From sequence record MH719082.1: a DNA stretch of 64,000 bases; one strand, written 5' to 3'. The stretch is from Escherichia phage vB_EcoM_IME392. Below the pieces are notes generated by a model. The model saw nothing but the letters and a program-made list of their open reading frames with translations. It ran no database searches and had not been told where the DNA came from. This document shows, one piece after another, positions 2,117 to 57,140 of this stretch (position 1 is its first letter; the number at the start of each line of letters is the position of its first letter). Both the position numbers and the translations under genes were made by a program.

Positions 2117-2746
2117 TTATTTAGGTATCCATGAATACTTCAAATCCCATGGTCTCGGAGTACCATGGAAGCATACTACCGCAACTCCATTAGGCACCGA
2201 CCCGTTTCCGGTAGACCTATGACAGTAATGCTCCTGGTCAGGACCTACTACTGATACCTTGTAGGAACAGAATTTACCTGGGTATAGATCCTGTATGCGA
2301 GGTACTCCATTAAAGAATGGGCAGATAAACTCCTGATCACCACCTACAGAGTGATTAGCCATGAATCTATCTGGGCTAACTATCCAGGCATTCCAGATGC
2401 GCTCAGCTAAGATAGGCTCAACACGCATCACGCTACTGTTAACCATCCCAGTATGATACCAGTCACGAAGAATAGTTGATTCGTCGCAATTAAGCAAGAA
2501 CGTAATATCGTCGATAATTGCTGTGTCTAAGTCGAAGAACACGAACGGCTCCTGGATAGTGAATAACTCCATCTTACTCCACCAGCCAGGATAATCATAC
2601 TTCATAGGTATCCACTCAACTCCTTCGATAGGCTCTTTAGAGATACATGCATATCTCGTACCCTCTGGGAGTTGTCTACCTACCCATTTAACGTGATCTT
2701 CTGTGAAGTCCTTACCCTTACGAAATACCGTAACCACTAACGACAT
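2117..2746 (-). CDS. hypothetical protein (209 aa)
   Basis: ORF track; adjacent to glycosyltransferase genes. Confidence 0.55.
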   Translation of the reverse strand: MSLVVTVFRKGKDFTEDHVKWVGRQLPEGTRYACISKEPIEGVEWIPMKYDYPGWWSKMELFTIQEPFVFFDLDTAIIDDITFLLNCDESTILRDWYHTGMVNSSVMRVEPILAERIWNAWIVSPDRFMANHSVGGDQEFICPFFNGVPRIQDLYPGKFCSYKVSVVGPDQEHYCHRSTGNGSVPNGVAVVCFHGTPRPWDLKYSWIPK

Positions 2747-3705
2747 TTAGTCTTCTCCATATGTTTAAATCCCTGGATCATGTTCTTAGCCACGTTATCC
2801 CAGGTACAATCTTTAACCTTATCAGCAATCTTGGTTCTGTTAAGCTTAGGGAGTATTTCATCCCAGTTTATCTTAGCACCAACTATGTGATGCTCCACAG
2901 ATTCCAGACGATCCTTAGGAATTAGTCCTTCCTTAGTTACTACCAGAGCTCCGCACCGAGCCGCTTCCAGGACAGTAAGACCTAACGACTCTTTATGAGT
3001 AACTATGAAGATGTCGCAGCATCTGATTAATGCAGCGAACTCCTGACTGCTTACTCCTCCCCGACGATACTCCTCAACACTTATATTCTCCTCGTCGATA
3101 ACGCATAATCCATTATCGGTAAGAGTGTAAGATACGTGAGGAACCGGAATATGCTTAAGGTTCATCATCATGGTTAGGGAGTAATCGAAGTCCGACAGAT
3201 CAAATAGAGGATGGTCTACGAATATCCTAAGTATACCATCTGACATTTTCTCTGGGTGGAATAGCTTATCATCAGCTGCCCACCCTACCTGCCAGTTATT
3301 ATCCAGATGTCTTTTCAGACGACTCGGATTGTCTAAGTACTTATAGGTATCATCTCGAAGAGTGAAAGTTACATCTACCTGTTTACAGTCCAGCATCGAA
3401 CCATCATAGATATGGGTAACTAATCCCTTAAAGTTCTTTTTAAGGTACTCACCTATCTCGTGAGGGATCTGGGTGAATGGTCTTACTCCTACGTATAGGA
3501 TATGATCACACTCCTCTTCCCTAGCTATTTCTAATACCTGATCGGCATAAACATGTGGATTAATCGAATCGTGGTATTCTGGCCAGAATACCAACTCTAC
3601 TCCGTTATCCTCCAGAGCGCCTCGGAGATGATATTTCCACATGGTACTGAAGTTGGTTATCTGATGTGAACTACCAGGACAATTCGCTATATACAGTAAC
3701 TTCAT
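2737..3705 (-). CDS. GT-B fold glycosyltransferase (GT4-like)
   Basis: C-terminal ESLGLTVLEAARCGALVV matches the E-x7-E sugar-donor motif region of GT4 enzymes. Confidence 0.6.
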   Translation of the reverse strand: MKLLYIANCPGSSHQITNFSTMWKYHLRGALEDNGVELVFWPEYHDSINPHVYADQVLEIAREEECDHILYVGVRPFTQIPHEIGEYLKKNFKGLVTHIYDGSMLDCKQVDVTFTLRDDTYKYLDNPSRLKRHLDNNWQVGWAADDKLFHPEKMSDGILRIFVDHPLFDLSDFDYSLTMMMNLKHIPVPHVSYTLTDNGLCVIDEENISVEEYRRGGVSSQEFAALIRCCDIFIVTHKESLGLTVLEAARCGALVVTKEGLIPKDRLESVEHHIVGAKINWDEILPKLNRTKIADKVKDCTWDNVAKNMIQGFKHMEKTKCR

Positions 3706-6796: not shown

Positions 6797-7051
6797 TCAC
6801 TGGTTCAGAACTGCCACGATCTTTTCTGCCACCTGCTCCAGAGTATCGTCGCTATCATAGTCGAAGTCTGGGATACAGTCTTCCATACCCAGTTCATCTT
6901 CAACACGCATGATGATCTCCACTTCATCCAGAGAATCTGCACCTAACTGCTCACCAGTAGTAGTTTCAGTTACTTCCAGAATATCAACCATCATGATGTC
7001 AGCTACTGCAGATCGCAGCGCATCTTTAACCTGTTCCAAAGTTACAGACAT
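6797..7051 (-). CDS. acyl carrier protein-like
   Basis: QLGADSLDEVEIIMRVEDELG matches the ACP phosphopantetheine-attachment DSL motif and helix II; 84 aa, acidic. Confidence 0.7.
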   Translation of the reverse strand: MSVTLEQVKDALRSAVADIMMVDILEVTETTTGEQLGADSLDEVEIIMRVEDELGMEDCIPDFDYDSDDTLEQVAEKIVAVLNQ

Positions 7052-8994
7052 TATTCAGCTCCAATGATTTTACGGAATTGATCTTCGGTAACGATCTTGG
7101 TACCCTTAGCTTCGGCAGCCTTAAACTTACTGGACTGACTCGGCTTGTCGCATACCAGATATTCTGCGTCGCCGATACCGACTTCGACTACGCCGTATTT
7201 GATCCAGGAGTTAACCAGTTCGCTACGAGGCTTACTAAGCTTACCAGTTAAGCAGATCTTGAACTTGCCTTCCGGAAGCGGTTCCTCTACCTTAGAGGCT
7301 ACCCAGTTCAGAGGAAGATTCAGTACCTTCAGGATTACTTCCTGATTCTCTGCAATCTTCTTAGCTACGGAACCCATGCAGGCATCATAGATTGCCTTAC
7401 AGATTTCGTAGTCCTCGGTATTGACCTGGATACCATCATTAACCATGTCGTGGAAGCTATTGTTACGCAATACACGAATCATCTGGTCGCGAGTCACCGC
7501 AGTGGCAATACGCACTCCTGTTGCATAACCAAGACCATCCGTCCAGGTACAGGTCAGCATGTGGTCCATAGAGATAGGACGATCCTTCATATTGAAGAAG
7601 GACTGACGAGTAAGCTGGAGAGGGCCATCGTACATCTCTACCATACTGAACACTGGATGAGATGGGCCAGTCTCGATGATATCGTTCATCATGGCAACAT
7701 CATCCAGTTTAGCCTGCTCGGCAAACTTGTTGATATTCATGCCACCGAGACCCTTAGGAGCGAAGTCACGGATTATTGTACGAATAACCATCGGGTCTAA
7801 CTTAGTCTTGATGCGGATGTGCACACCATCCCAGAAGGTACGTACCCCATCGACAAACTCAGGAATTACCGCAGTGACGGGTTCCACGACTTCTTCGATA
7901 TGAGGAATTACCTCGTTACGGCGACTGATCTTGATCTTAGCGCCAGGTCCGATACCAGCACTCTTGATGTACTCAGCATTCCACCCGGATGCATAAGTTA
8001 CATTAACGCCACTCATGTCTACCGTCTCGAACTCAACAGTAGGCACGACTCGGCCGTAACCACTAACTACCCAGTGTACTTTAACCACGGTAGTGTCGTA
8101 GAATGCTGATTGGTACTTGATCTTATAGTGGACAGTATTCTTGCCCAGCATATTCTCATCCCAGTCAACATTCAGAGATCCCAGAACTACGCCATCCAGC
8201 AGGTAGTTGCAGATGGGATCTTCGCGGAACTTAGATGGCGGGTTAGCCACCAGCCAGGTATTGACATAACCAGCAGGAAGAACGAAGTACTTAACCACTT
8301 TGAAACCAGCCTTACTTAAGCATAGCAGCAGCTGGTTGTAGTCATCCATCCATGTCTCGTGATCCACATCCTCGTAGAATGCGGTTACAGAATATGCAAC
8401 CACATCCAGCAGTTCCATTAATGCAGGATCACTGTATTTAGCCAGAGCAATACCAGAGGCAGCATTACGCTGGTTACTGTACTCGTGGCTGATACGCTCG
8501 AACTTATCATCAGGAATAACGATTTCGCAGCGGACTTCTTTAATACCCTTAGGAACCTGGCGAGGAAACTCGGCACACTCCAGATTCTTCGTGATGTCCA
8601 GACCAGTGACGCCGTCGTGACGAGTTAAGCCACGGACGAAGTTACCGTCGTAGTCGTAATACAGAACTACCGAGATGCCGTCCAGTTTAGCCGAAGCGAC
8701 GAATCCCTTAACTTCTTCGTGACCATGGAGGAAGTTAAATCCCTCTTCCACAGCACCGATCTTAACCTGGTCAAGACCACCCACGAATGAACCATGTGGA
8801 CACTTAGCCAGATGTTCAGCAGCTTCGGTTACTCCCCAGCCTGGGGTGGTGAGGAGTGGGTTAGTAGGATCCAGCTCAGCTAATTTCTCGGTAAGAGCAT
8901 CGAACTCTTCGTCCGTAATAATGGGCTGGTCACCATTATAATATGCATTAGCCGCATTCTTAATTTGCTCTATCAGAGCAGCGACTTTTTCCAT
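7051..8994 (-). CDS. ligA: NAD-dependent DNA ligase
   Basis: N-terminal NAD-ligase block (YYNGDQPIITDEEFDAL), 647 aa, C-terminal BRCT-like segment. Confidence 0.85.
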   Translation of the reverse strand: MEKVAALIEQIKNAANAYYNGDQPIITDEEFDALTEKLAELDPTNPLLTTPGWGVTEAAEHLAKCPHGSFVGGLDQVKIGAVEEGFNFLHGHEEVKGFVASAKLDGISVVLYYDYDGNFVRGLTRHDGVTGLDITKNLECAEFPRQVPKGIKEVRCEIVIPDDKFERISHEYSNQRNAASGIALAKYSDPALMELLDVVAYSVTAFYEDVDHETWMDDYNQLLLCLSKAGFKVVKYFVLPAGYVNTWLVANPPSKFREDPICNYLLDGVVLGSLNVDWDENMLGKNTVHYKIKYQSAFYDTTVVKVHWVVSGYGRVVPTVEFETVDMSGVNVTYASGWNAEYIKSAGIGPGAKIKISRRNEVIPHIEEVVEPVTAVIPEFVDGVRTFWDGVHIRIKTKLDPMVIRTIIRDFAPKGLGGMNINKFAEQAKLDDVAMMNDIIETGPSHPVFSMVEMYDGPLQLTRQSFFNMKDRPISMDHMLTCTWTDGLGYATGVRIATAVTRDQMIRVLRNNSFHDMVNDGIQVNTEDYEICKAIYDACMGSVAKKIAENQEVILKVLNLPLNWVASKVEEPLPEGKFKICLTGKLSKPRSELVNSWIKYGVVEVGIGDAEYLVCDKPSQSSKFKAAEAKGTKIVTEDQFRKIIGAE

Positions 8995-9058: not shown

Positions 9059-9832
9059 TTAGCGATTCTCAGGTTCTACGTATTCCAGGCCCAGCAGCTG
9101 ATACAGTTCTTCCTCAGAGGAATTAGTATCCACACGCTCACCAGTCTCTACATTAAACAGGCCGTACTCATTAAGAGTCATGCCCATACGCTTAGCCACC
9201 GAACGCATGTGTACGTTATTCTGCATTGATCCTGTGGAGTGAAGTAAGCATGCATTCCAGGATTCTTCTGGACATATCTTGATATCGAACTCCAGACCAG
9301 TAGCGCAGTGTACGAAGCGGATCTTTTTATCCCCACCATAAACTTCTTCCATACCGGTAAGACGGAAGGCATGGCGAACCACTTCTGGAGGGTAAGTAGT
9401 GATCAGATCAACATCGCGAATCCACATCTTACCGCGACGTACTGAACCAGCAGTAGAGATCCGACCAGCAGATCCTTCAGCTAATCCTAACTTAGCCACT
9501 TCCATAAGGTAGGATTCTATGATATCCTTAAACTCGGTAGAGTAGGCAACACGCCCTTCTGGGACTTTAGACATAAGTTCAATGAACTTAGGAGTCATGG
9601 TACCATACTTGGCGAATGCTTCTAACTCGCTAGCAATCCCAGCACCGATCCATGGGATTGTAGTGAAGTTCATCTGGGAAGTTACACCATACGGGTAATC
9701 ATCCAGGGAACGGGCTGCACGATCATACGCCCGAACATGCCACATCGAGTCACCATGAGCTTTCTTAAGCTCGGCTATTTGGCGAAGGTGGCGAACAGCA
9801 TCAATACGGAAGGTCATCCTAACAGGCTCCAA
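9059..9832 (-). CDS. DNA polymerase beta-like (family X) nucleotidyltransferase
   Basis: GSVRRGKMWIRDVDLI matches Pol beta GSFRRG...DMDVLL catalytic motif. Confidence 0.6.
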   Translation of the reverse strand: MEPVRMTFRIDAVRHLRQIAELKKAHGDSMWHVRAYDRAARSLDDYPYGVTSQMNFTTIPWIGAGIASELEAFAKYGTMTPKFIELMSKVPEGRVAYSTEFKDIIESYLMEVAKLGLAEGSAGRISTAGSVRRGKMWIRDVDLITTYPPEVVRHAFRLTGMEEVYGGDKKIRFVHCATGLEFDIKICPEESWNACLLHSTGSMQNNVHMRSVAKRMGMTLNEYGLFNVETGERVDTNSSEEELYQLLGLEYVEPENR

Positions 9833-13978: not shown

Positions 13979-14011
13979 AGTTTTATCCCAAATTAGACGA
14001 TTTGATGAACC

Positions 14012-14093
14012 GGGAAGCGCCTTGACGCCCCCGCCCACAAGAACGGGCTTTAGGACGGTTCAAAAATCGTTTATTTGAAAAATAAAACGTTTT
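14012..14093 (-). repeat. composite conserved intergenic element, family B, copy 2
   Basis: Same core CCCACAAGAACGGGCTTTA...AAAAATCGTTTATTTGAAAAATAA. Confidence 0.5.
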
Positions 14094-14442
14094 ATTTTTC
14101 GTGTCGAACGATGGTATCAATACAGTCCATATCCATGATAACGAAGATTACAGACTCCCCATTATCTTCCACTACCTTAAGCACCTGCCATCCTTGCTCC
14201 ATAAAGACTTCTCTCATAGCGGCAAGATCTCGCACATGCATAAGCTCGGTAACTGTAATCACTCTGGGACGAATGAACTTCTTCAGAGTTATCTCGTAAA
14301 GATAGGTCCCATAGTTCTTGTAGAGATTATCTACATTACAGGTATACAGACCTAACTCGGGACCCCACCCCTGCGATAAGGTCTGGATGAGCTCATAACT
14401 AGGCCAATCCCATTTATGCTTACTACGATGATACAGAATCAT
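14092..14442 (-). CDS. hypothetical protein
   Basis: ORF track. Confidence 0.45.
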   Translation of the reverse strand: MILYHRSKHKWDWPSYELIQTLSQGWGPELGLYTCNVDNLYKNYGTYLYEITLKKFIRPRVITVTELMHVRDLAAMREVFMEQGWQVLKVVEDNGESVIFVIMDMDCIDTIVRHEK

Positions 14443-14728
14443 TAGCTACCACCTTATGATAAAATCTTCCGGTAGTGTGGATTACAGTAGCTATGTACTT
14501 AGCGTCCACTTCAGTGCCTAGCAGATTAGATACCGCCTTAATTACAGTTGCTGCTGGGTGTTTATGGTTAATTACCACATCCAGCATCTTACGATCGGCA
14601 GATGGGAAGAACTTCTTATTCCGACGAGCAATATTCTTAACCACCATGTTGGGATCATCGGATGTGTAACCAGCTATGGCCATGGTGGTCAGTAAGTCAA
14701 AGAATTCGACTGGTTTAGTGGACTTCAT
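14423..14728 (-). CDS. hypothetical protein
   Basis: ORF track. Confidence 0.45.
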   Translation of the reverse strand: MKSTKPVEFFDLLTTMAIAGYTSDDPNMVVKNIARRNKKFFPSADRKMLDVVINHKHPAATVIKAVSNLLGTEVDAKYIATVIHTTGRFYHKVVANDSVSS

Positions 14729-14783
14729 ATCGTACCTTAACGAGTAAATAAAAATAGGCTGTTAACCGAGGGCGCTCCCCAAG

Positions 14784-14813
14784 TTAACAGCCTTTGGACC
14801 GTATTAAACGGCG
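14784..14813 (-). promoter_or_regulatory. 31-bp conserved intergenic motif (variant)
   Basis: TTAACAGCCTTTGG...AAACGGCGG; additional upstream inverted copy GGCTGTTAAC forming 10-bp stem. Confidence 0.45.
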
Positions 14814-15148
14814 GCAGTCAGGAAGTTACTGGAGATCAGGAAATCATCCAGAGCTACTTCTGTATTCTTAGGAGTATTGTCTAACTCCCATTCACCTACT
14901 CCCAAACGGATCTTAGCCACGCCAGGAGCAATCTCTTCAATAGCTAGCTTAGAGCCACCGATTATCTGGAGGCGAAGAGCATTTACAGCTACTGCATACC
15001 CAGAGAACGCAGTCTCTACCTGGTGACGGAACTCCTGGTCGGAATTAACCTTAGCAGCGTAAGCAGCAGGTTCCATACCCAGTTGCTTAGCATACATCAG
15101 ATGAAACATGTCCAGGTTAATTTTGTTACCAGTAGTCTTCTTAGTCAT
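14804..15148 (-). CDS. hypothetical protein
   Basis: ORF track. Confidence 0.45.
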   Translation of the reverse strand: MTKKTTGNKINLDMFHLMYAKQLGMEPAAYAAKVNSDQEFRHQVETAFSGYAVAVNALRLQIIGGSKLAIEEIAPGVAKIRLGVGEWELDNTPKNTEVALDDFLISSNFLTAAV

Positions 15149-15665
15149 TCTTGATTTCCTCAGCAGTTACGCCAGTGATGTTTAAATACAGATCGGTAGG
15201 TAATTCTGGTAGGGTAGAGACATCCAGATTCTCTACGTCCTTAGCCAGAGTTATGTGAGGAGAGTATTCCGCACTGATCTCAGACGGCACCTCTCCAGAG
15301 GCACGGAGTCGATAGTTAAACGACTGTAGCAGATCGCTATCGAACGCCAGCACCAGGTAGTTAGCATTCTCACCAAAGATCTCATAGCGAGGATTCTTCA
15401 GATGAAGTTTGCTACCCACCAGATCAGCAATAGTTCCCTCATCCGGAGCACCAGTCCCCGGAGCATACATAAGGGTGCAGTGGTTATCGTGACCGGTATC
15501 GAAGTTAAGCTTATCATAATCAGCTACTTCGGAGATAACCTGCTTAAGATTATCTATCCAGGCATCAGAGTCTGGACAGAATTTTACCGAGGAGTAACCC
15601 TCGTCCACGGACTGTACAAGTCCTAACACTACTTCAGCTTTATTCATTTTTATCACCATGGCCAT
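15141..15665 (-). CDS. 2H phosphoesterase superfamily protein (LigT-like)
   Basis: Two H-x-T-x motifs (HCTLMY, HITLAK) with spacing typical of 2H phosphoesterases. Confidence 0.5.
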   Translation of the reverse strand: MAMVIKMNKAEVVLGLVQSVDEGYSSVKFCPDSDAWIDNLKQVISEVADYDKLNFDTGHDNHCTLMYAPGTGAPDEGTIADLVGSKLHLKNPRYEIFGENANYLVLAFDSDLLQSFNYRLRASGEVPSEISAEYSPHITLAKDVENLDVSTLPELPTDLYLNITGVTAEEIKND

Positions 15666-15952
15666 GGTAGTTTATTTTCGGGCTCCTGCCTATAGTAGGA
15701 GCATTTGATACCCAACGATTCCACAATACTTACAGGAATCTTATCAGTTACTTCAGAGTCTTGATAGATTGGTCCGAATACTGATACGTTTGGATCTTGC
15801 AACAGTTCAGATACTAATCCGGCTTCTTCATAAGTATCGAAGAATGCTGCGGTAGTATCCGGATTACAGCCGAGACCGGTCCATGAGGTGTAAAACTCGT
15901 TTACTCCACAGAGAGCACCGTGCTCCTTATGCACCACTAAAAATCCCAGCAT
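15653..15952 (-). CDS. hypothetical protein
   Basis: ORF track. Confidence 0.4.
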   Translation of the reverse strand: MLGFLVVHKEHGALCGVNEFYTSWTGLGCNPDTTAAFFDTYEEAGLVSELLQDPNVSVFGPIYQDSEVTDKIPVSIVESLGIKCSYYRQEPENKLPWPW

Positions 15953-16457
15953 CTGTGTATCCTTTAAGTTTATTTCTATACTTAACCATTTCCTGCTTAG
16001 CTATCTCATCGCAGAGATTATTTACTTTGTAGCGAGGATTATTGAACTTCTGATGACCTTTGACATGCTTAACCTTAATGGACTTAGGGTTAAGATCGCG
16101 AAGCATTTCCATATGCTTATCTATGAATTCCTTTAGTGCCCATTCGCAATCGCATTGGACGACTACTCTAACGCCATCGAACGCTGTCTTAGTCATGGCG
16201 AACCATAAGGTCTTCATGATCCCTTCTAGCTCTGCCCAGTTATTATCTGCAGCAGTAAATCCTCCGCGAGTTATATGAGCTCGCTGCTCACCAGGAAGAC
16301 GAATCCATCCTCCGAAGCCAGCAGCCTTACTCTTATGACAGTACGATGCATCTGAGAAGATTGTTATATACCCAGTAGGGTCCAGACCGCGTTCGGGAGT
16401 ACCCTCAAAGTGGATAACTCTACCAACATCTTTCTCACCGATAGCAGGTTTCTTCAT
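15927..16457 (-). CDS. RNase H (type 1-like)
   Basis: IFSDASY, WAELEGI and VKHVKGH...NNLCDEIAKQ blocks matching RNase HI catalytic DEDD arrangement. Confidence 0.7.
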   Translation of the reverse strand: MKKPAIGEKDVGRVIHFEGTPERGLDPTGYITIFSDASYCHKSKAAGFGGWIRLPGEQRAHITRGGFTAADNNWAELEGIMKTLWFAMTKTAFDGVRVVVQCDCEWALKEFIDKHMEMLRDLNPKSIKVKHVKGHQKFNNPRYKVNNLCDEIAKQEMVKYRNKLKGYTDAGIFSGA

Positions 16458-18025
16458 TACATATCCACCGTAGTTGCCTGGAATAAACCGACTACCATTT
16501 CATGGCTTGGTTTGACTACCGGACTATCGAAGTCGATAGAGCTATTGATGTTCTGGTTAACCATCATCAGGCTACGTACTTCCCAGCAAGCACGATCAGT
16601 CAGTACACGGTGAATTGCTGCGGTATCACCATCCACGTCCATGTTCTGACCACCCATAGCCATCGGAGGAACCTGAATCTCCTTACCCATGTGAGGTCTG
16701 ACCTTAAATCCCCATACTGAGTAACGGTGTAGGGATGGCGCACGGTTCATGAACACCGTAGCATTCTCACACAGTCTCCAGCATACTTCCAGAGCTACTC
16801 GGGACTTATTCTTGTACATACGCTGGACTTTATTGCTGATGTCGTACATGTTGTACCCTTCGTTAGTCGGGCCACCATATAAGTTCTCCAGCTCACCCAG
16901 GATGTCTGGCTGAAGTAATTCGTACATCATCTTGAACGGTACACCAAGAGTATCCAGCGGAAGATGAGGAGCCGAAGTAACTACAGAACGACCGGAGTAA
17001 TCAACGCGCTTACCTAACAGGTTACCACGGATTCGACCACCCTTACCTTTAAGGTTATTGATCATCGGCTTAATTAAATTACCTCGATAGTCCTTAGTAC
17101 CCTCCAGGATTAGTCCGTTAACCATCTTCTGCATTACAATAGATTCACGAGGAATCAGAGATAACAGCGCTTCGCTGGCCTCGGCAGTATCGCGAATACT
17201 TCTGATACGGATAGCATGGCGCAGGATTCGCAGGTAGAGTAAGTTAGTTGGATGATACGACATTACCCCATTACTGATACCAACATCACGATAGCTAGGA
17301 GGATTCACCAGCACCGTAGTGTTATAGAAGTCGCTGAACTCCGTATAACCACTATTGATTACTGTAGGATCTTCGCATTCTTCGATATAGGCTTTCATAT
17401 CAGCATGGTTAGCTACCAATGCCTGGATAAGGCTTAGGAGACCTAATTCAGATGACTCATGCTCGGACATACGGCGGATCTTGATCATTACTACTGCGAG
17501 GCGCTTCGTGCTATCCTGAACTGGGATAGTGTTAGAGTAGAACATCGCATACTTCTCACGATCTTCATATTCCGGAAGAGCAGCATTAGCCTCACGAACC
17601 CGCTCCCGATCATCGCCAACCATCTTAGCTGCCAAACCAGCTTCCTGGACTACGAAGCGGTATTTACCGATAAGGAACTGACCGAACTCTCGCTCTGGAA
17701 ACCCGAATAACGCAGCCATGCGTTTGATAGCTAATGGATTCACATAAGGAACGATCGTCTCGATGTGACCCATACGGCGGCGACGAGATTCACGATGCAT
17801 CGCTACCATACCGCATACATTACACGGAGGCGCTCCCATAACCATCTGGTTACCACACTCACACTTACCAGTTACCAGAGGTCCGAAGATACGCTGGCAG
17901 AATAACCCACCAGTGAATGGCTTAGGATCATGGAACTTAAGGTTATACATGCCCATACTGGTTACTTCACCACTGGACTCGGCACGGATTACAGCATCAG
18001 TTGCAATAGATAACTTTAATTTCAT
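16457..18025 (-). CDS. multisubunit RNA polymerase beta-prime subunit, N-terminal portion
   Basis: GLFCQRIFGP...CECG zinc motif, RRRRMGHIE, NLLGKRVDYSGRSVV, NRAPSLHR and NMDVDGD (variant of NADFDGD) in canonical order. Confidence 0.85.
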   Translation of the reverse strand: MKLKLSIATDAVIRAESSGEVTSMGMYNLKFHDPKPFTGGLFCQRIFGPLVTGKCECGNQMVMGAPPCNVCGMVAMHRESRRRRMGHIETIVPYVNPLAIKRMAALFGFPEREFGQFLIGKYRFVVQEAGLAAKMVGDDRERVREANAALPEYEDREKYAMFYSNTIPVQDSTKRLAVVMIKIRRMSEHESSELGLLSLIQALVANHADMKAYIEECEDPTVINSGYTEFSDFYNTTVLVNPPSYRDVGISNGVMSYHPTNLLYLRILRHAIRIRSIRDTAEASEALLSLIPRESIVMQKMVNGLILEGTKDYRGNLIKPMINNLKGKGGRIRGNLLGKRVDYSGRSVVTSAPHLPLDTLGVPFKMMYELLQPDILGELENLYGGPTNEGYNMYDISNKVQRMYKNKSRVALEVCWRLCENATVFMNRAPSLHRYSVWGFKVRPHMGKEIQVPPMAMGGQNMDVDGDTAAIHRVLTDRACWEVRSLMMVNQNINSSIDFDSPVVKPSHEMVVGLFQATTVDM

Positions 18026-18040
18026 TTTAATTTCTCCTAA

Positions 18041-18760
18041 TCAAGGCTTAGCGACGACAGTATAGGCTTCACGAACGATTTCACGAGCTACTTTAGCCGC
18101 ATGCTGAGTACCACAATACTGATGCATGTATTTGAACTGCACAGGTTGTTGCTGGCGAAGATGATTGATATAGCGACGAAGAGTAGGATGTGTGACACTC
18201 TGGTCAGCACCACTCACTACCATCATAAACGCAAACATCTTCAAACTAGCTTCACGTTTAGCAGGATATTTCTGCATGATGTAATCGATTACACCGTTCA
18301 CCAGGAGCTTCAGATCACGAGAACGCGCTATGGGTGATTTCTGGTCTGGGCTAATGGAAGCAGGATCGATTAATTCCACACGACTTTCGCCATCATCGTC
18401 CGTTACGAGAGTAGACTCGTTAAAGGACATTATGTGACGACGATCCATCGTTTCTTTATCTTCGTGACGAGTATCACCAGTTTTAGCCATATAACCAGTT
18501 GGGTTAACTACCCGAAGATACTCATGCGACACGATAGAGTCAGCAACGTATGGATTATTATTGACACGAGCAATGTTACGGTCTAGAGAACGTAAATCTC
18601 CTGAATCTAATGCGCTATCATAGAAGGATAAGTCGATGTACTCGTCCCCAGTGTTAGCAATGTTGAATGTTTCATGGAACTTATAGTTAGCGGTCATTGG
18701 TCTATCCCAATTAGAGAATTCAAAGAGCGACCGCGAGGCCGCTCGGTTACCTGCTATCAA
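18041..18760 (-). CDS. hypothetical protein (between the two RNAP genes)
   Basis: ORF track. Confidence 0.5.
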   Translation of the reverse strand: MIAGNRAASRSLFEFSNWDRPMTANYKFHETFNIANTGDEYIDLSFYDSALDSGDLRSLDRNIARVNNNPYVADSIVSHEYLRVVNPTGYMAKTGDTRHEDKETMDRRHIMSFNESTLVTDDDGESRVELIDPASISPDQKSPIARSRDLKLLVNGVIDYIMQKYPAKREASLKMFAFMMVVSGADQSVTHPTLRRYINHLRQQQPVQFKYMHQYCGTQHAAKVAREIVREAYTVVAKP

Positions 18761-19095
18761 AGCGCGAAGTAATACCAGTCACCATAAACGCGAATCAGCA
18801 CTTCCTGACTTTCTGCGTCCACATTAGTGAAGTAGAAGCTACCGAATCCGAACTCCAGAGACTCACCAGTCTGCATGAGATCTGCCATTTCATCCATGAA
18901 CTTATCGAAGTCTGGATCACGGTCCTGAACTACAGCGACTTCCACCTCCTTGGCGTACAATTCAGAACGACCAATATGAGGAGCAGCCTGGCGGAACTCC
19001 ATTACAGCACCACGAGCCAGATTTTCCTCAGCAGCATCCCGAACAGAGTCAGTATCGATTGTAGCGAAAGATTTAATCGCATTTAAACGTGACAT
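18757..19095 (-). CDS. hypothetical protein
   Basis: ORF track. Confidence 0.45.
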   Translation of the reverse strand: MSRLNAIKSFATIDTDSVRDAAEENLARGAVMEFRQAAPHIGRSELYAKEVEVAVVQDRDPDFDKFMDEMADLMQTGESLEFGFGSFYFTNVDAESQEVLIRVYGDWYYFAL

Positions 19096-19123
19096 AGTAT
19101 TAGCTCCAAATTAGATTATCCAG

Positions 19124-19196
19124 TGAAGCGCGACCGCACCCCACCCAAAAGAACGGGCTTTATGAGCTCCCAAAAATCGGTTATTTGAAAAATAAA
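19124..19196 (-). repeat. composite conserved intergenic element, family B, copy 3
   Basis: CACCCAAAAGAACGGGCTTTA...CCCAAAAATCGGTTATTTGAAAAATAA. Confidence 0.5.
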
Positions 19197-19202
19197 TTTC
19201 AA

Positions 19203-19903: not shown

Positions 19904-21418
19904 TTATTTGTTATTCAGATTTAACCCAGCAATGATCATCTCGGAACGGGTTCCGAAGCTAACATCACCATTAAGCACCGCCGAGGTAAGACGCTGCTTA
20001 ACGTTACCGTGGCCGATAGACTTCAACCAGCTAGGATGCTTCGTAGGGATGGCATCAGCTTTAATCGCCAGTACCTCACCTTTATCACCCATGCTGCGAA
20101 CGCCGATTCGTCCGTTATTCATCTTAACTAGATCAGTACATCCACGAGCAATGATCTCATGGTGAATCGATGCGATACCGATACCGATGTCGTCGAAGAT
20201 ATGCTTAAGCTGGATTGATGCTAGCTCTGCACCCTTAATAGCCGAACCAGTTTCGTGGGCAAGATCCGTGATGCACTTATACTTAGACTCAGATACCTGA
20301 GCCACCGCAGTACCTCGGCCACCTACCGTCTTCAGGATATCAGCCAAGGTATTACTTACCGAGGTACCGAATTCCTTAAGCGTAGTCGAACCAGATGTAT
20401 GCTTACCACGAAGACCAGCCTGAGTAGATGGTTCAGATATATGCTGCGCCGACGCCGTTCCAATACCGAAGTTAATCGGGAAGAAGTTAGCTGGCTTAGC
20501 CGGATCCATACCGCAGCAATGCTGACATACCCCACCCTTAGTTGATTCACAGGTAATCGGGCTAAGAACTTTCACATTACCTTCTTCATCTGCTAACTGA
20601 TCAACATTCTCTTTAGTGACCATTACTCGGTCGCTAGTGAATCGATACAGTGCCGATTTCTTAGGTAAGGTAATCACTTCCTTAGTTCCACAGTCCTCTT
20701 CGACAATAGACAGCTCTCTGGAACAGTTAACTAGCTGGCGAGCGAACCACCCAGTCGCAGGTACCAGGAAGAAGTTACCAGCCAGACCCTTACGTGCAGG
20801 TCCGCAGGTATTGAAGTAGTTGATCGGAGATAATCCAGAGCTTAAGTTCTCCATGATCGGCATCGGCATGATCTTACCAGTCATACCCACCAGAAGACCC
20901 TTAGCTACCACCATCGAACGAACCTGGGGAGGAGATACACGAGCACCGGATACACCCATCGCATACAGAGGATTATGACGGTCCACTTCTTTGAACCAGC
21001 GATCAGTACATTCGTTGATCACCTTATCAGCAGCAGCCAGACGATCCTCATACCCCATCTTACCAAGCTCCTGGGTCATAGCTGGGAAGTCAATACCGAA
21101 GTCAAACTTAGTATCGTCATAGCACAGGCTAAGTCCAGACATAGTTGCTTTATGGAATCCGAACTGCTGCAACTTATGTAATCTACGCCCAGCTACTTCC
21201 GGAGTGTAGTTATTATTGATGTGAGAGACGATCTTCGCAGATTCCTTCTTATCGATTTCTTTCTCTGGAAGATAGCCACTGATTTCCCAAATAAACAGTC
21301 GACCGATAGTAGTTTCTTTAGGACCATCAGAGAAGTAAAAACGCACCGGAGTGGTGTAGGTTGCTTCTTTCATATCAATAAGACGGTGTAATTCATTCAA
21401 GGACTTTGATACGATCAT
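19904..21418 (-). CDS. multisubunit RNA polymerase beta-prime subunit, C-terminal portion
   Basis: GVSGARVSPPQVRSM...GPARKGLAGN, EEDCGT, GVCQHCCGMD, ASAQHISEPSTQ blocks colinear with bacterial beta-prime C-terminal half. Confidence 0.8.
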   Translation of the reverse strand: MIVSKSLNELHRLIDMKEATYTTPVRFYFSDGPKETTIGRLFIWEISGYLPEKEIDKKESAKIVSHINNNYTPEVAGRRLHKLQQFGFHKATMSGLSLCYDDTKFDFGIDFPAMTQELGKMGYEDRLAAADKVINECTDRWFKEVDRHNPLYAMGVSGARVSPPQVRSMVVAKGLLVGMTGKIMPMPIMENLSSGLSPINYFNTCGPARKGLAGNFFLVPATGWFARQLVNCSRELSIVEEDCGTKEVITLPKKSALYRFTSDRVMVTKENVDQLADEEGNVKVLSPITCESTKGGVCQHCCGMDPAKPANFFPINFGIGTASAQHISEPSTQAGLRGKHTSGSTTLKEFGTSVSNTLADILKTVGGRGTAVAQVSESKYKCITDLAHETGSAIKGAELASIQLKHIFDDIGIGIASIHHEIIARGCTDLVKMNNGRIGVRSMGDKGEVLAIKADAIPTKHPSWLKSIGHGNVKQRLTSAVLNGDVSFGTRSEMIIAGLNLNNK

Positions 21419-24671: not shown

Positions 24672-24941
24672 TTATCGAATTAGCCCATACTTCCATGCCA
24701 TTACATGCGCAGGTTCGTTATGAGCGAAGAATGCGGTACCCTTCTTGGTAGTAAGCACCAAACATGGCTTATTTCCCATCATATCAGCCATGCTAGCTAC
24801 CACAGTCTTCTCAGACCCAGGCTTAGCCGGATCAATGCCCATAGCTATTTTATGAGCAGTTGTCTTACCAGGACGTCTCGGATTAGATACCAAGACTTTA
24901 GGGGAGGCCTTTCGGCCACCCTTACGCTGCTTTCTCGCCAT
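24672..24941 (-). CDS. small basic protein
   Basis: ORF track; Lys/Arg-rich N-terminus. Confidence 0.4.
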   Translation of the reverse strand: MARKQRKGGRKASPKVLVSNPRRPGKTTAHKIAMGIDPAKPGSEKTVVASMADMMGNKPCLVLTTKKGTAFFAHNEPAHVMAWKYGLIR

Positions 24942-27900
24942 GTTTAGGCTCCAGAGTTATTTTAGCCTTAAGCTCGATATACTTACATCCCCAGCCTGTA
25001 CCGTCGGAACGAATACCGGATTTGGAGTTGAAGCTGTTAGCTATAGAGTTTAACTTCTCCTTCTCCTTAAGGATCTCTACGTATGGAGTCCACTGGCTAT
25101 ACTGATCGAGAGCTTCCAGTAGTTTTTCCAATGCAGACTCACGACCCTCAACGATCAGCCATCCGGAACCATCTTCGTTAACTCCATAGTCATCCAGACC
25201 CATCAAGGAACCTCCCCGAGCACCGAATTCGATATCAGTGCGCATAGGCATATCCCAGAGTTCACGAATAGCTCCCTCCATATTCTCACGAGTCTTCTGG
25301 AATACCTTGAACATCTCGTTGATTCCGGATGTGGTATCCAAGGAGTCGTGGACCATGATGTGAGTCTCGGCTTCCATATTGGACTGCTTAAAGTCCTCAT
25401 CCAGGAAATACATACCTGCACCAGCAACCATCGACGAAGTATTCTGGATAGGGTAGTTCACCGAAGTAGAGTTAACGTTGGTACCTTCCAGGTTGATACG
25501 GTTACCGAAGTAGCCATAAGCATACCCAGTCTCGAAGCCATTTTTCTTGGTAGCATCAATCCATGCCTTAAGACCGGTAAACTTACCGAATACCGTGTCC
25601 ATCAGATTCTGAGCACGCTCCATATCACCACCAGTAGCAACCATCGCTACCGATTCAAGGCTAGACTGGTATACTAATGCGAAGTTAATCGCCTTACCAC
25701 CCTTACGCTCAACATCAGTTACTTCAGGTTCAGACTTCTGGTATGCAATAGAGCTAACGAATCGGTGCATGTCACCACCAGATGAGAATACGTTCTTCAT
25801 ATCCGAGTCATCGGCGAACACGCTAACCATCACCAGCTCAGCCTGGCTAAAGTCCTGGTGATACCACAGACCACCCTCCGGCTTAGATACCCAGATGTTA
25901 CGCAGAGTACTGTCGCCAGGAACGTTATGAATACCTGCCTGCCAACGGGATGTAATCGCAGCCAACGAGTTAAAGTCCGGAGTCATGATGTAACAATCTT
26001 CACCATCCTGCAACTTCGGATTATCCCAGTCGTACTTACGAACTCGCAGTGGAGGTAGACCATCACGTAGCTTAGCTGCCCATACCGTCTGACGTCCTAC
26101 CTTACCATCAATGTACGTAGCAATCTGTTTGTAGTGACGCTTATACATCTTCAGGTCAACCATCATACGGAACGATGTATTCCAGGTAGACTCGTCGTCA
26201 GGATTAACTCCCAGCATCAACTGGTGAATAGCCAATTGAGCATCGAGAACATCCGCTTTAAACTTATTCGTGAATCGCTCTTCATAAGCTTCCAGACCGT
26301 CCTGGACGCACATGGCAATTAACTCTCGAACATGCTTAGACTCAGCAGTATCCCCGAATTGGATGATCCTGGTTAAGATCTCATCTACCGGAAACTCCCG
26401 GAAGAATTCCTTCTCCAGCTTCTCCGAATCCTTAGGCACGAATCCCTTAGAGATCGCTAGCAGGGTTTTATCCCAGTAGTCATGCACCTTAAGCTGGTCC
26501 ATTACAGACCATAGCATGGTACACATCTCGACTTCATCGGTAAGATAGGCTTTCCAGAACTTCTCCTTATTAGCCTTATCGTTACTGTTAGGGTTGAAGA
26601 ATCCAGACAGATCAGCAATCTTCCCAGCCAGAGTAGTAACCATCTTACGGCGCTCTTGGCCACCAGGAGTGTACCATACGTTCTCGTACGGCAACTCTCG
26701 ATAGATAAAGTCACGAGCTGTAAGCATCTGGTCAGGAGGTAACTTAAGGTTAGGAATTAGGCTAACCAAGTGCTCCGACATTTTGCTCATGCAATAGTCG
26801 TACTCTTTAGTCGCCTCTTCGTCATCCCAACGAATACCGTTAGCTTCAAAGATAGATGCCAGGTATGGATGTAACATATATACGTTATACCCATCCTTAT
26901 ACTTATCGTAAAACATCTCGTGGATGAACACACCGTACGCGGAGTCATAGCAGCAGTACTCCCCAAGAATCTCACGAGGAATCGCACCCCACTCATATGG
27001 GTAGAACGATGCCAAGTAAATAATCTCGGATTCTTCGAGCTCCTCCGATAGTTCGGCTATCTTATCCAGCATAAACTGGTTGAAGTTAACAGGAACACGA
27101 TTCTTAGCTGCCTTAGTCGGAGCCGCTTCCACGAGTTTCTCGTACTCAGCTTTAAGAGCTAGGTGATGCTCAATATTGAACTCACCGGACTGAATCTCGG
27201 CAATCTGTTCAGGAGTACAACGCTTCTTCATATCCTTGAAGATAGCTGCCCAACGATCCTTCCATTCGTGTACCGACCCTTCCCAGAAGTCTGCATGTAA
27301 ATAACGACGAGCAGCATCTTTCAACGAGCTTCGTTCGCCATGCATAGTCAGAGTTACAATCGCATCTATAAACTTACAGAATACGTCTAACCAGTGCCAC
27401 GTAGTCTTAATCTCGTACGGGCAGTTAAACGCCACGATCTGTTCCTGGAACTTAACCAGGAAGTCACGCAGGAATCCGAGCTGCTCCGGAGTCTCTTTAC
27501 CGGTAACATTATACCATACAGACTTGGCATCCTTATCACCAATCTTCTTAGCGATACTGAATCCAGTGATCCGGAAGTCTACCGAGAATAAATCAGCTGC
27601 GTTAGACTCATAGTCGAGGCCGAGATAGCCTTTGTACCCAGACCACATAATGTCGTTAAGGAACTCCTGGAGGCCGTTCCAGTCGACGAATTCCCACTCT
27701 ACATTATACTCGGATTCTTTCTGGCCGAATACCAGAAACTTAAAACGATCAATCCACGAATCCAGTAGGCCAGGATCAGAATCCAGATTACGTTCAACCT
27801 GGGCATGGTGCATGACTACAGCTAGCTTAAAGTTATACTCCGGTATGTTACCCAGAGGGAACTTCAGCAACTTATCCAGAGTCTTCTTATGCGTGTAACC

Positions 27901-28209
27901 TGGAGATATAGTCGCAGCTAATTGGCGACCCAAAGTCATTACATGCTTAACGCCATGCTTTTCACACAGCTCGTAAAAGTTGAGACCATCCTTATCACGG
28001 ATTTCGTCTATGTTAGACAGCTCTTCGAAAGTACCATCTCTGTTGATCTCTATCAGACCAACTTTGTTATGTACCCCAGCTGTAATTAGCGCTACATCAA
28101 GAGTTTGGCCAGCATTCGATGCAGCAAACGGAGGAGCATCATTATTCTCGCGCTCGTCCCCGATAATGACATAGTCTACTTCGCCAACTAAATTGTGATT
28201 CAGAAACAT
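24922..28209 (-). CDS. family A DNA polymerase
   Basis: Motif A DFSQAELV, motif B RKGGKAINFALVYQ, motif C VHDSLD; ATG at 28209 with GGAG RBS (ORF-track start at 28221 is TTG). Confidence 0.8.
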   Translation of the reverse strand: MFLNHNLVGEVDYVIIGDERENNDAPPFAASNAGQTLDVALITAGVHNKVGLIEINRDGTFEELSNIDEIRDKDGLNFYELCEKHGVKHVMTLGRQLAATISPGYTHKKTLDKLLKFPLGNIPEYNFKLAVVMHHAQVERNLDSDPGLLDSWIDRFKFLVFGQKESEYNVEWEFVDWNGLQEFLNDIMWSGYKGYLGLDYESNAADLFSVDFRITGFSIAKKIGDKDAKSVWYNVTGKETPEQLGFLRDFLVKFQEQIVAFNCPYEIKTTWHWLDVFCKFIDAIVTLTMHGERSSLKDAARRYLHADFWEGSVHEWKDRWAAIFKDMKKRCTPEQIAEIQSGEFNIEHHLALKAEYEKLVEAAPTKAAKNRVPVNFNQFMLDKIAELSEELEESEIIYLASFYPYEWGAIPREILGEYCCYDSAYGVFIHEMFYDKYKDGYNVYMLHPYLASIFEANGIRWDDEEATKEYDYCMSKMSEHLVSLIPNLKLPPDQMLTARDFIYRELPYENVWYTPGGQERRKMVTTLAGKIADLSGFFNPNSNDKANKEKFWKAYLTDEVEMCTMLWSVMDQLKVHDYWDKTLLAISKGFVPKDSEKLEKEFFREFPVDEILTRIIQFGDTAESKHVRELIAMCVQDGLEAYEERFTNKFKADVLDAQLAIHQLMLGVNPDDESTWNTSFRMMVDLKMYKRHYKQIATYIDGKVGRQTVWAAKLRDGLPPLRVRKYDWDNPKLQDGEDCYIMTPDFNSLAAITSRWQAGIHNVPGDSTLRNIWVSKPEGGLWYHQDFSQAELVMVSVFADDSDMKNVFSSGGDMHRFVSSIAYQKSEPEVTDVERKGGKAINFALVYQSSLESVAMVATGGDMERAQNLMDTVFGKFTGLKAWIDATKKNGFETGYAYGYFGNRINLEGTNVNSTSVNYPIQNTSSMVAGAGMYFLDEDFKQSNMEAETHIMVHDSLDTTSGINEMFKVFQKTRENMEGAIRELWDMPMRTDIEFGARGGSLMGLDDYGVNEDGSGWLIVEGRESALEKLLEALDQYSQWTPYVEILKEKEKLNSIANSFNSKSGIRSDGTGWGCKYIELKAKITLEPKHGEKAA

Positions 28210-28238
28210 GTTTAACTCCAAAAATAAACCTCCGCCAA

Positions 28239-37557: not shown

Positions 37558-37588
37558 TTAACAGCCTTTTAGGTCATCAAACAGGAGG
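37558..37588 (-). promoter_or_regulatory. 31-bp conserved intergenic motif (variant, overlaps 3' end of transporter CDS)
   Basis: Left half conserved; right half diverged where it overlaps last codons of 37577-38959. Confidence 0.4.
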
Positions 37589-56348: not shown

Positions 56349-57140
56349 TCAGTACCGAGGATCAGTATCCTGATAGTCGCGAATTAGGTCATAGACGAGC
56401 ACATCCAGACGAGTAGCATCTTCACGTTTCATGCGGGTAGGTCTGTACATATGGATACATACACAATGCTTAGACCAGACCTTAGCAGTCTGACGCTCCG
56501 TAAGTTCTTTACGGTCGATAATGTACTTCTCGAATGCGTGATAAGAGATAGGCTTTGATACTTCGACATGCTGGCACATATCGAGGAACTGCGGGTAGTC
56601 GTCAGTTAAGAAGCGACTGAATACGTCCTGGTAATAAGAGTAGTTAGGGAATTTACCACCCTGCTCCAGAGATAACGCATGAGTCTCGATCTCCTTCAAC
56701 ATCAGAGCCATAAATTCCTGATTATTGCTGGGAGAGGTCCACATGTTTATCTCGCAGTAATCTAACCGAGGGGAATAAACACGTACCTGAGTCTCGTGAG
56801 GAGTATACGTTTCGTGAGGGCTTCTGATAAAGAGAGTATCAGCATCTACATAGGAGTAACCACGAAGATCCATCATTACCTGAATCTTGAGTCGCAGATA
56901 GTCACATACAGAGGCCATCTTAGCCTTAGTTTTCAGGATATTATACGCCTTCTCCATAATAGGATCTCTGGCGAATAAATCCTGGATCATAACGCAACGG
57001 CAACCTTCGATAATATTCTCTTCGTTATCGATCACCAGTACATGATCATTAGGTCCGTATTTCTGTAAGGACTTAATGCATTCCCGAACATGGATAGGCA
57101 TTTTGGGTCCTACCCAAAGCTGGAAATAATTCTGACTCAT
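56349..57140 (-). CDS. putative DXD-type glycosyltransferase (GT32-like)
   Basis: N-terminal YFQLWVG and CDYLRLKI...GYSYVDADT resembling the GT32 sugar-binding region. Confidence 0.4.
   Translation of the reverse strand: MSQNYFQLWVGPKMPIHVRECIKSLQKYGPNDHVLVIDNEENIIEGCRCVMIQDLFARDPIMEKAYNILKTKAKMASVCDYLRLKIQVMMDLRGYSYVDADTLFIRSPHETYTPHETQVRVYSPRLDYCEINMWTSPSNNQEFMALMLKEIETHALSLEQGGKFPNYSYYQDVFSRFLTDDYPQFLDMCQHVEVSKPISYHAFEKYIIDRKELTERQTAKVWSKHCVCIHMYRPTRMKREDATRLDVLVYDLIRDYQDTDPRY

What the first reader, a model, noticed from the sequence alone, without database searches (positions are those of the whole stretch)
15141..16457. 2H phosphoesterase next to RNase H: RNA repair factor or cyclic-nucleotide-degrading anti-defence candidate
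ORF 15141-15665 carries two H-x-T-x motifs typical of the 2H phosphoesterase fold (LigT / 2',3'-cyclic phosphodiesterase). Phage 2H-fold enzymes have been implicated in degrading cyclic oligonucleotide immune signals (Acb1-type anti-CBASS) as well as in tRNA repair; this phage also carries its own tRNAs. Sequence alone cannot distinguish the roles.
Basis: partly seen in the sequence, partly recalled or inferred. Interest (0 to 1): 0.5.

Follow-up and report, generated by a model that had tools for sequence, protein, structure and literature searches.

The report
Acb1-family anti-CBASS phosphodiesterase, lid-less variant
This phage gene encodes a small enzyme of the Acb1 family, which phages use to destroy the cyclic-nucleotide alarm signals of bacterial immune systems. 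It is a previously unlabelled and somewhat unusual member of a known family, not a new kind of system.

Summary
ORF 15141-15665 lies on the minus strand. Its real start is most likely the ATG at 15647, giving 168 aa. It carries two H-x-T motifs (H56-C-T58 and H131-I-T133). An RNase HI gene lies two genes upstream, and two tRNAs lie at about 58 kb.

- The protein passes Pfam PF23474 (Acb1), but only just.
- A profile built from its own 9-member subclade finds only Acb1 chains in the PDB with confidence (7T26, E 2e-7; 9Q2G, E 2e-5). A LigT-like protein scores E 0.009.
- The catalytic tetrad, the Tyr12 equivalent and the adenine-contacting Glu141 equivalent are conserved.

The differences are these. 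The protein ends before the C-terminal Trp lid of T4 and FBB1 Acb1. The Phe107 position is not aromatic. A conserved 17-residue N-terminal segment resembles the N-terminal lid of phage BCSR5 PDE-9.

The exact protein is GenBank AXY86065.1 (Escherichia phage vB_EcoM_IME392, "hypothetical protein"). Substrate range and anti-defence activity are inferred, not shown.

Verdict: new member of a known kind, with modest interest.

The parts
15141..15647 (-). Acb1-family 2H phosphodiesterase CDS, 168 aa. The longest ORF reaches 15665, but the homologues start at 15647.
   Evidence: Identical to AXY86065.1 of Escherichia phage vB_EcoM_IME392.
15474..15482 (-). First catalytic motif, H56-C-T58, equivalent to T4 Acb1 H44/T46.
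   Evidence: Read from the sequence. His and Thr are invariant in 101 of 101 family sequences.
15249..15257 (-). Second catalytic motif, H131-I-T133, equivalent to T4 Acb1 H113/T115.
   Evidence: Read from the sequence. His is invariant and Thr is present in 99 of 101 family sequences.
15603..15647 (-). N-terminal 15 residues (MNKAEVVLGLVQSVD), a candidate N-terminal lid. The subclade consensus is MxKAxxxLxxLxxV, and the segment has the same length and hydrophobic pattern as the N-terminal lid of BCSR5 PDE-9.
   Evidence: Alignments. AF2 predicts a helix at residues 3-11, but at low confidence (pLDDT 53-72). The PDE-9 lid is described in bioRxiv 10.1101/2025.08.21.671373. The lid role here is an inference.
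15141..15161 (-). C-terminus ...A-E163-E-I-K-N-D-stop. E163 is equivalent to the adenine-contacting E141 of Acb1. The protein ends one residue before the position of the lid tryptophan W147.
   Evidence: Residue mapping. The roles of E141 and W147 come from PMC9117128.
15653..15952 (-). 99-aa ORF of unknown function between the RNase H gene and the Acb1-like gene. Its stop lies 5 nt before the Acb1-like start. It is context, not shown to be functionally linked.
   Evidence: No Pfam, PHROG or NCBIfam hit. The same position is kept in EP_H11 and L005.
15927..16457 (-). RNase HI-like gene (176 aa), a neighbour that recurs next to Acb1-like genes of this subclade.
   Evidence: Pfam PF00075 E 1.2e-8 and PHROG 531 E 4.5e-18. 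Also adjacent in L005 and L006.
14804..15148 (-). 114-aa ORF of unknown function. Its ATG overlaps the Acb1-like stop codon by 8 nt, which suggests translational coupling. It is context only.
   Evidence: No family hits. The same overlap is seen in L005 and EP_H11.

Best explanation
The gene encodes a metal-independent 2H phosphodiesterase of the Acb1 family (Pfam PF23474; 'structural group 3' viral 2H PDEs). The proposed mechanism is taken from the solved Acb1 structures. A cyclic di- or trinucleotide immune signal binds in the U-shaped beta-sheet cleft. There it stacks on Y18 and F91 and is read at an adenine by E163. The two HxT motifs (H56/T58 and H131/T133) catalyse attack of the 2'-OH on the adjacent 3'-5' phosphodiester. 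This gives a 2',3'-cyclic phosphate intermediate that is then hydrolysed, so the ring is linearised and can no longer activate CBASS effectors. The gene sits in a co-directional cluster of replication and transcription genes. It would therefore blunt abortive-infection signalling in E. coli hosts that carry CBASS or related oligonucleotide-signalling systems. This protein lacks the C-terminal Trp lid of T4/FBB1 Acb1. If a lid closes the pocket, it most likely comes from the conserved N-terminal segment, as in phage BCSR5 PDE-9. Shown here: gene, fold, family placement and conservation of catalytic and some ligand-contact residues. Inferred: substrate, lid and biological role.
Against: The Pfam score is only marginally above threshold. 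Identity to any biochemically characterised enzyme is 22-24% (17-22% over the structural alignments), and none of them falls inside the subclade. Two of the four base-stacking aromatics of Acb1 are missing: F107 is replaced by I124/S125, and W147 is absent because the protein ends first. T4 Acb1 without its lid failed to trigger Panoptes-dependent cell death, which the authors take to show the lid is needed for catalysis. The candidate N-terminal lid has no aromatic residue and is modelled at low confidence. The AF2 alignment consisted mainly of PF23474 proteins, so the model's resemblance to Acb1 is not fully independent evidence. Some viral 2H PDE structural groups showed no activity on any tested messenger. 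No experiment exists for this protein.
Confidence: 0.68

Rival explanations
1. The fold is Acb1-like but the specificity has changed. The altered pocket (no Trp lid, aliphatic residue at the F107 position, 2-3 residue insertion before the second HxT) retunes the enzyme. It might act on a narrower or different set of nucleotide messengers, for example sparing 2'3'-c-di-AMP to avoid triggering Panoptes as PDE-9 does. Alternatively it might target cA3 from type III CRISPR, or another signal, rather than the broad CBASS range of T4 Acb1.
For: The missing aromatics and the lid are documented. The subclade is a separate NJ clade (bootstrap 73/100) with no characterised member. Doherty et al. show that substrate scope tracks variation in the 2H core and differs even within structural group 3.
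Against: The core residues that contact ligand in Acb1 (the Y12, W74 and E141 equivalents) are retained. The core is structurally closer to broad-range FBB1 Acb1 than to PDE-9. No computation available here can predict specificity.
Confidence: 0.17
2. The protein is a LigT/ThpR-type RNA 2',3'-cyclic phosphodiesterase working in RNA or tRNA end-healing. It would trim 2',3'-cyclic phosphate ends produced by host anticodon nucleases, or take part in RNA processing alongside the neighbouring RNase H.
Against: Every sequence and structure comparison ranks Acb1 above LigT. The Acb1-specific nucleobase contacts Y18 and E163 are conserved. No RNA ligase or polynucleotide kinase domain appeared in about 45 window ORFs scanned with Pfam or PHROGs. 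RNase HI products carry 3'-OH and 5'-phosphate ends, not cyclic phosphates, so there is no biochemical hand-off (established knowledge). The RNase H adjacency is absent in the other three contexts where neighbours could be read, L007, L009 and L010.
Confidence: 0.1
3. The protein is a catalytically dead or purely ligand-binding relic of a 2H enzyme.
For: There is no lid tryptophan, and some viral 2H PDE groups were inactive on all substrates tested.
Against: Both HxT motifs are invariant across the subclade down to 30% identity, together with E16-G17-Y18 and E163-E164. This indicates selection on the active site.
Confidence: 0.04

Closest known systems
Acb1 (anti-CBASS protein 1) of phages T4 (gp57B) and Erwinia FBB1; PDB 7T26/7T27; Pfam PF23474
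   Different: Identity is only 21-24%. The protein stops one residue short of the lid Trp (W147), so it has no C-terminal lid. The F107 position is I124/S125. The N-terminus before the Tyr is longer and conserved (17 residues against 11 in T4). There are extra residues in the loop after the first HxT and before the second. The genomic neighbourhood differs: RNA polymerase, RNase H and replication genes here, against 57A/gene 1/ipI in T4.
2H PDE-9 of Burkholderia jumbo phage BCSR5 (PDB 9Q2G/9Q2Y; Doherty et al., bioRxiv 10.1101/2025.08.21.671373)
   Different: Identity is 17-22%. It is not in the same clade. PDE-9 has a roughly 20-residue insertion after the second HxT and a different C-terminal end, and it has a Trp at the W74 position. 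Its lid contains a Tyr where this protein has Leu. PDE-9's selectivity (it cleaves 3'3'-cGAMP and spares 2'3'-c-di-AMP) cannot be transferred by homology.
LigT/ThpR RNA 2',3'-cyclic phosphodiesterase ('2'-5' RNA ligase'), e.g. E. coli LigT 5LDI and D. radiodurans CPDase 5H7E
   Same: It belongs to the same 2H superfamily, with two HxT motifs and a metal-independent acid-base mechanism through or on 2',3'-cyclic phosphates.
Eukaryotic-virus 2H phosphodiesterases (coronavirus ns2, rotavirus VP3 C-terminal domain, avian poxvirus cGAMP PDE 9BKQ)
   Same: They follow the same strategy: a viral 2H enzyme destroys an oligonucleotide immune messenger. The poxvirus enzyme also uses an N-terminal lid.

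Membership tests
Acb1 family (Pfam PF23474) | Scores at or above the curated Pfam gathering threshold | tested here: met
   27.7-27.8 bits against a cut-off of 27, which is marginal. All 9 subclade members match, best E 3.5e-14. The precomputed Pfam label of P0001 and P0002 is PF23474.
Acb1 family (Pfam PF23474) | Compact 2H phosphoesterase fold whose nearest solved structures are Acb1 proteins | tested here: met
Acb1 family (Pfam PF23474) | Active-site HxT/HxT tetrad (T4 H44, T46, H113, T115) | tested here: met
   The equivalents are H56, T58, H131 and T133. These columns are invariant or nearly so in 101 sequences.
Acb1 family (Pfam PF23474) | Nucleobase contacts of the core: Y12, W74 and E141 (adenine N6) | tested here: met
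   The equivalents are Y18, F91 (FBB1 also has Phe here) and E163. Their roles come from PMC9117128.
Acb1 family (Pfam PF23474) | Aromatic residue at the F107 position stacking on a base | tested here: not met
   The position maps to I124 (L-INS-i alignment) or S125 (default MAFFT). Neither is aromatic. Ile at this column occurs only in this subclade (5 of 101 sequences).
T4/FBB1-type Acb1 (C-terminal lid subtype) | C-terminal lid (T4 residues 145-152) with Trp147 closing over the ligand | tested here: not met
   The protein ends 5 residues after E163, and the Trp would fall at +6. In the sampled family, 57 of 101 sequences have the Trp and 33 end before it, PDE-9 included. The lid therefore defines a subtype, not the whole family.
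PDE-9-type Acb1 (N-terminal lid subtype) | N-terminal segment of about 15 residues acting as the lid | tested here: inconclusive
   The segment has the same length and hydrophobic pattern as PDE-9 residues 1-15, and the subclade conserves MxKAxxxLxxL. The AF2 confidence for residues 1-10 is only 53, and no ligand-bound model was possible.
Acb1 family (functional definition) | Cleaves cyclic di- and trinucleotide CBASS signals and rescues phage from CBASS | not testable with these tools
   This requires biochemistry and infection assays.
LigT/ThpR 2',3'-cyclic phosphodiesterase (PF13563 / PF02834) | Scores above the family threshold, with LigT-type enzymes as nearest structures | tested here: not met
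Phage RNA-repair module (Pnk + Rnl, with end-healing enzyme) | Co-occurrence with RNA ligase or polynucleotide kinase genes | tested here: not met
   No such domain was found in about 45 ORFs of the window scanned with Pfam or PHROGs. The scan was not exhaustive, and the rest of the roughly 116-kb genome lies outside the window.

The most novel reading that the evidence does not exclude
The IME392/EP_H11 subclade could be a distinct functional type of Acb1-like enzyme. It lacks the Trp lid and one stacking aromatic, and it has a conserved N-terminal segment without aromatics. Its substrate range could therefore differ from both T4 Acb1 and PDE-9. For example, it might be selective for a subset of CBASS signals while sparing decoy 2'3'-c-di-AMP, or it might act on a messenger not yet linked to 2H enzymes. 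Its recurring adjacency to an RNase HI gene could reflect a two-enzyme counter-defence or RNA-processing unit.
Probability: 0.2. Interest if true: 0.55.

Novelty: new member of a known kind. Interest (0 to 1): 0.3.

Why it matters
The result attaches a probable counter-defence function to a gene that GenBank lists as 'hypothetical' in Escherichia phages vB_EcoM_IME392 and EP_H11. These phages belong to a poorly studied group of about 110-116 kb with its own multisubunit RNA polymerase and probably hypermodified thymidine. For phage therapy or host-range prediction, an Acb1-type enzyme suggests resistance to CBASS-carrying E. coli and possible sensitivity to decoy systems such as Panoptes. For enzymology, the subclade is a natural test of how much of the Acb1 pocket (Trp lid, F107) is dispensable. 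It also tests whether N-terminal lids are widespread. The family and its mechanism are already established, so the conceptual gain is small.

Tried and rejected
- A single-sequence phmmer search against the PDB found nothing. The word-indexed homologue search found only two close relatives.
- The first AlphaFold run, with a 3-sequence alignment, was unusable (pLDDT 37) and was discarded. The second run used 70 sequences.
- NCBIfam gave no meaningful hit.
- The supplements of Doherty et al. mention none of the four search terms (EP_H11, WBU87659, OP688485, BCSR5). A literature search for IME392 and EP_H11 returned nothing about this gene.
- The sigma-70 promoter and terminator scan of 14000-19200 was at or below shuffle expectation, so it says nothing about timing of expression.
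- P0007, a 3390-aa hit with 15 matched stretches, is an invasin/Ig-repeat protein and was treated as spurious.
- I considered a functional RNase H-2H pair. The adjacency recurs in one distant context (L006) but not in L007, L009 or L010, and RNase HI chemistry yields no cyclic phosphate, so I kept it only as a minor possibility.
- I considered the longer 174-aa start at 15665 and rejected it, because no homologue has the MAMVIK extension.

Full report
**Observation**

The region 15141-16457 holds three tightly packed minus-strand genes.
- A 174-aa ORF at 15141-15665.
- A 99-aa ORF at 15653-15952.
- A 176-aa ORF at 15927-16457.

The first ORF contains HCTL and HITL. I checked both against the raw sequence; the codons lie at 15474-15482 and 15249-15257. 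The closest homologues all begin MNKAE: EP_H11 WBU87659, P0001 and P0002. A GGTGAT element lies 5 nt upstream of the ATG at 15647. The product is therefore most likely 168 aa, and I use that numbering below.

The third ORF is an RNase HI homologue (Pfam E 1.2e-8, PHROG 531 E 4.5e-18). Its catalytic Asp, Glu, Asp, His and Asp residues are visible by eye against E. coli RnhA. Two tRNA genes lie at about 58 kb.

**Source**

The DNA is 93% identical to Escherichia phage EP_H11, a 111-kb unclassified phage. The 168-aa protein is identical to AXY86065.1, a "hypothetical protein" of Escherichia phage vB_EcoM_IME392, on a contig of 116,460 bp. The viral structure library also holds an identical entry, A0A385ISL7. 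In the window, all genes between about 2 and 60 kb run on the minus strand. Neighbours of the gene include:
- two pieces of a split RNA polymerase beta' subunit;
- a family-A DNA polymerase;
- a helicase;
- a PolX-like protein;
- an NAD-dependent DNA ligase.

**Family placement**

- **Pfam.** The protein matches Acb1 (PF23474) at 27.7 bits against a curated cut-off of 27, E 2.6e-6. The LigT-type PF13563 reaches only 12.8 bits.
- **PHROGs.** It matches PHROG 755, labelled "RNA ligase", at E 4e-10. GenBank puts the same "RNA ligase" label on gp57B (Acb1) of T4 and RB49.
- **Phage genomes.** Apart from EP_H11, the listed hits were all gp57B loci of RB49-like phages (33% identity, E 2e-3).
- **Exhaustive profile search.** A search of 1.8 billion representatives returned 57 proteins at E<1e-3. 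A second word-indexed search seeded with them returned 57 proteins, all pre-annotated PF23474.
- **Independent test.** To avoid circularity I built a profile from the nine subclade sequences only (A5, 30-91% identity to the window protein). It hits Acb1 of Erwinia phage FBB1 (7T26) at E 2.4e-7 and the BCSR5 enzyme (9Q2G) at E 1.7e-5. The best LigT-like chain (B. subtilis YjcG, 2D4G) reaches E 0.009. All nine members match PF23474 individually, best E 3.5e-14.

**Structure**

With a 3-sequence alignment AlphaFold failed (pLDDT 37). With 70 sequences it gave pLDDT 88.1 and pTM 0.82, with the expected beta-alpha pattern of a 2H fold.

| Comparison | Target | Score |
|---|---|---|
| Foldseek | Acb1 chains | E 9e-7 to 7e-6 |
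| Foldseek | D. radiodurans CPDase (5H7E); E. coli LigT | E 6e-5; E 1e-4 or weaker |

In the viral library the named top hits are "Anti-CBASS protein Acb1". One caveat applies. The alignment that drives the model consists mainly of PF23474 proteins, so the structural ranking is supportive but not independent of the sequence result.

**Residue-level comparison**

Hobbs et al. (PMC9117128) define the following for Acb1:
- the HxT/HxT tetrad (H44, T46, H113, T115);
- four stacking aromatics (Y12, W74, F107, W147);
- an adenine-N6 contact (E141);
- a C-terminal lid (residues 145-152).

I aligned 101 family sequences, including T4 Acb1, the FBB1 chain, RB49 57B and BCSR5 PDE-9. The mapping is below.

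| T4 Acb1 residue | Window protein | Status |
|---|---|---|
| Y12 | Y18 | conserved |
| H44 / T46 | H56 / T58 | conserved |
| W74 | F91 | aromatic kept (FBB1 also has Phe) |
| F107 | I124 or S125, depending on the alignment | not aromatic |
| H113 / T115 | H131 / T133 | conserved |
| E141 | E163 | conserved |
| W147 | none | protein ends at D168; the Trp would be residue 169 |

In this biased sample, 57 of 101 sequences have the lid Trp and 33 stop before it. PDE-9 is among those that stop before it.

Doherty et al. (bioRxiv 10.1101/2025.08.21.671373) solved PDE-9. They showed that its lid is the N-terminal 15 residues. They also showed that the core, not the lid, sets specificity: PDE-9 cleaves 3'3'-cGAMP and largely spares 2'3'-c-di-AMP. 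As a result it does not trigger the Panoptes decoy system.

The window protein has 17 residues before the conserved Tyr, against 18 in PDE-9 and 11 in T4. The hydrophobic pattern of the two N-termini matches (A4/V6/V7/L8/V11 here against A5/I7/L8/Y9/L12 in PDE-9). The subclade conserves MxKAxxxLxxLxxVxEGY. AlphaFold predicts a helix at residues 3-11, but at low confidence. An N-terminal lid is therefore plausible but unproven, and this candidate lid carries no aromatic residue.

**Phylogenetic position**

In a neighbour-joining tree of 157 well-occupied columns, the window protein groups with P0001-P0006, P0008 and P0009 (bootstrap 73/100). T4, FBB1, RB49 and PDE-9 all lie outside this group at saturated distances. 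No characterised enzyme belongs to the subclade.

**Genomic context of relatives**

- **L005** carries P0002 (71% identity). The order beta'-N, RNase H, 99-aa ORF, Acb1-like, 115-aa ORF is the same as in the window.
- **L006** is from a 110-kb JGI contig and carries P0003 (43% identity). The Acb1-like gene is immediately followed by an RNase H gene. These two are the only genes of the 16.5-kb locus with detectable similarity to any window ORF.
- **L007, L009 and L010** have other neighbours: a topoisomerase fragment, a dUTPase, and unrelated genes. **L008** starts at the gene itself.

The RNase H linkage therefore recurs once outside the close lineage but is not general. RNase HI leaves 3'-OH and 5'-phosphate ends, so there is no obvious chemical hand-off to a 2H enzyme. 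I treat the adjacency as co-location among replication and transcription genes, with a small chance of something more.

**RNA-repair alternative**

About 45 ORFs of the window were scanned with Pfam or PHROGs. None showed an RNA ligase or polynucleotide kinase domain. The scan was not exhaustive, and roughly half of the genome lies outside the window. Together with the lower LigT scores, this puts the RNA-repair reading at about 0.1.

**Mechanism proposed**

By homology with Acb1, the enzyme should bind a cyclic di- or trinucleotide in the beta-sheet cleft. The two HxT motifs would then drive metal-independent 2'-OH attack on a 3'-5' bond next to an adenosine. This forms a 2',3'-cyclic phosphate, which is hydrolysed to a linear 3'-phosphate product. 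That removes the signal which activates CBASS effectors (mechanism from PMC9117128).
- **Shown here:** the gene, its family, the fold, conservation of the tetrad, and three of the five non-catalytic ligand contacts.
- **Inferred:** substrate, lid and role in infection.

The missing aromatics are real differences and could change substrate range.

**Verdict**

This is a divergent, previously unlabelled member of the Acb1 anti-CBASS phosphodiesterase family, of the type without a C-terminal Trp lid. Novelty: new member of a known kind. Interest: 0.3.

Noticed in passing
window 16457-18025 (-) and 19904-21418 (-): There are two separate genes for pieces of a multisubunit RNA polymerase beta' subunit (Rpb1 domains 1-2; PHROG 25354, 2987, 3015). 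They sit in a phage of only about 111-116 kb, separated by two ORFs of unknown function. Split multisubunit RNA polymerases are best known from jumbo phages.
   Followed up: partly
window 31858-32931 (-) and 33740-34711 (-): A thymidylate-synthase homologue (E 5e-12) lies near a protein with the 5-hmdU DNA kinase helical domain (PF18723, E 3e-35). This points to a thymidine hypermodification pathway. A preprint (10.1101/2025.03.26.645540) lists EP_H11 among phages suspected of T-modification and says that the 5-HMUDK gene 'could not be detected'. It is unclear whether that remark covers only phage RP13 or also EP_H11. Here a clear match exists.
   Followed up: partly
window 37577-38959 (-): A 460-aa ORF matches the BCCT betaine/carnitine/choline transporter family nearly end to end (E 1e-92). 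A full-length secondary transporter is an unusual gene for a phage.
   Followed up: no
window 9059-9832 (-) and 7051-8994 (-): A PolX-like protein (HHH_8 plus the DNA polymerase beta thumb domain) lies directly upstream of an NAD-dependent DNA ligase. This could be a phage-encoded gap-filling and repair pair. It fits the UDG-fused DNA polymerase and abasic-site handling described for this phage group.
   Followed up: no
window 24922-28221 (-): A 1099-aa family-A DNA polymerase (PHROG 17), much longer than usual. It probably belongs to the SP-15/YerA41-type UDG-fused polymerases discussed in bioRxiv 10.1101/2025.03.26.645540, which names EP_H11.
   Followed up: no
window 14804-15148 (-) and 15653-15952 (-): Two small ORFs of unknown function flank the Acb1-like gene. 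One overlaps its stop codon by 8 nt and the other ends 5 nt before its start. Both keep these positions in EP_H11 and in the 71%-identity relative L005. No family match was found in Pfam, PHROGs or NCBIfam.
   Followed up: partly
L006 8501-9325 (+); L006 12019-12450 and L008 4098-4523: In distant relatives the RNase H next to the Acb1-like gene is 274 aa, with an extra C-terminal region. A NADAR-domain gene lies a few kb downstream in both L006 and L008. No NADAR domain was detected in the window ORFs that were scanned.
   Followed up: no
PDB 8HDS (cyanophage Pam3 portal protein), residues about 483-617: The family profile matches the C-terminal part of a solved phage portal protein at E 1.7e-14. 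This suggests an Acb1-like 2H domain fused to a portal.
   Followed up: no
window 2737-3705 (-) and 56349-57140 (-): There are weak glycosyltransferase matches: GT1 at 26.2 bits against a cut-off of 26.4, and a DXD sugar-binding region. They may relate to DNA or surface glycosylation.
   Followed up: no
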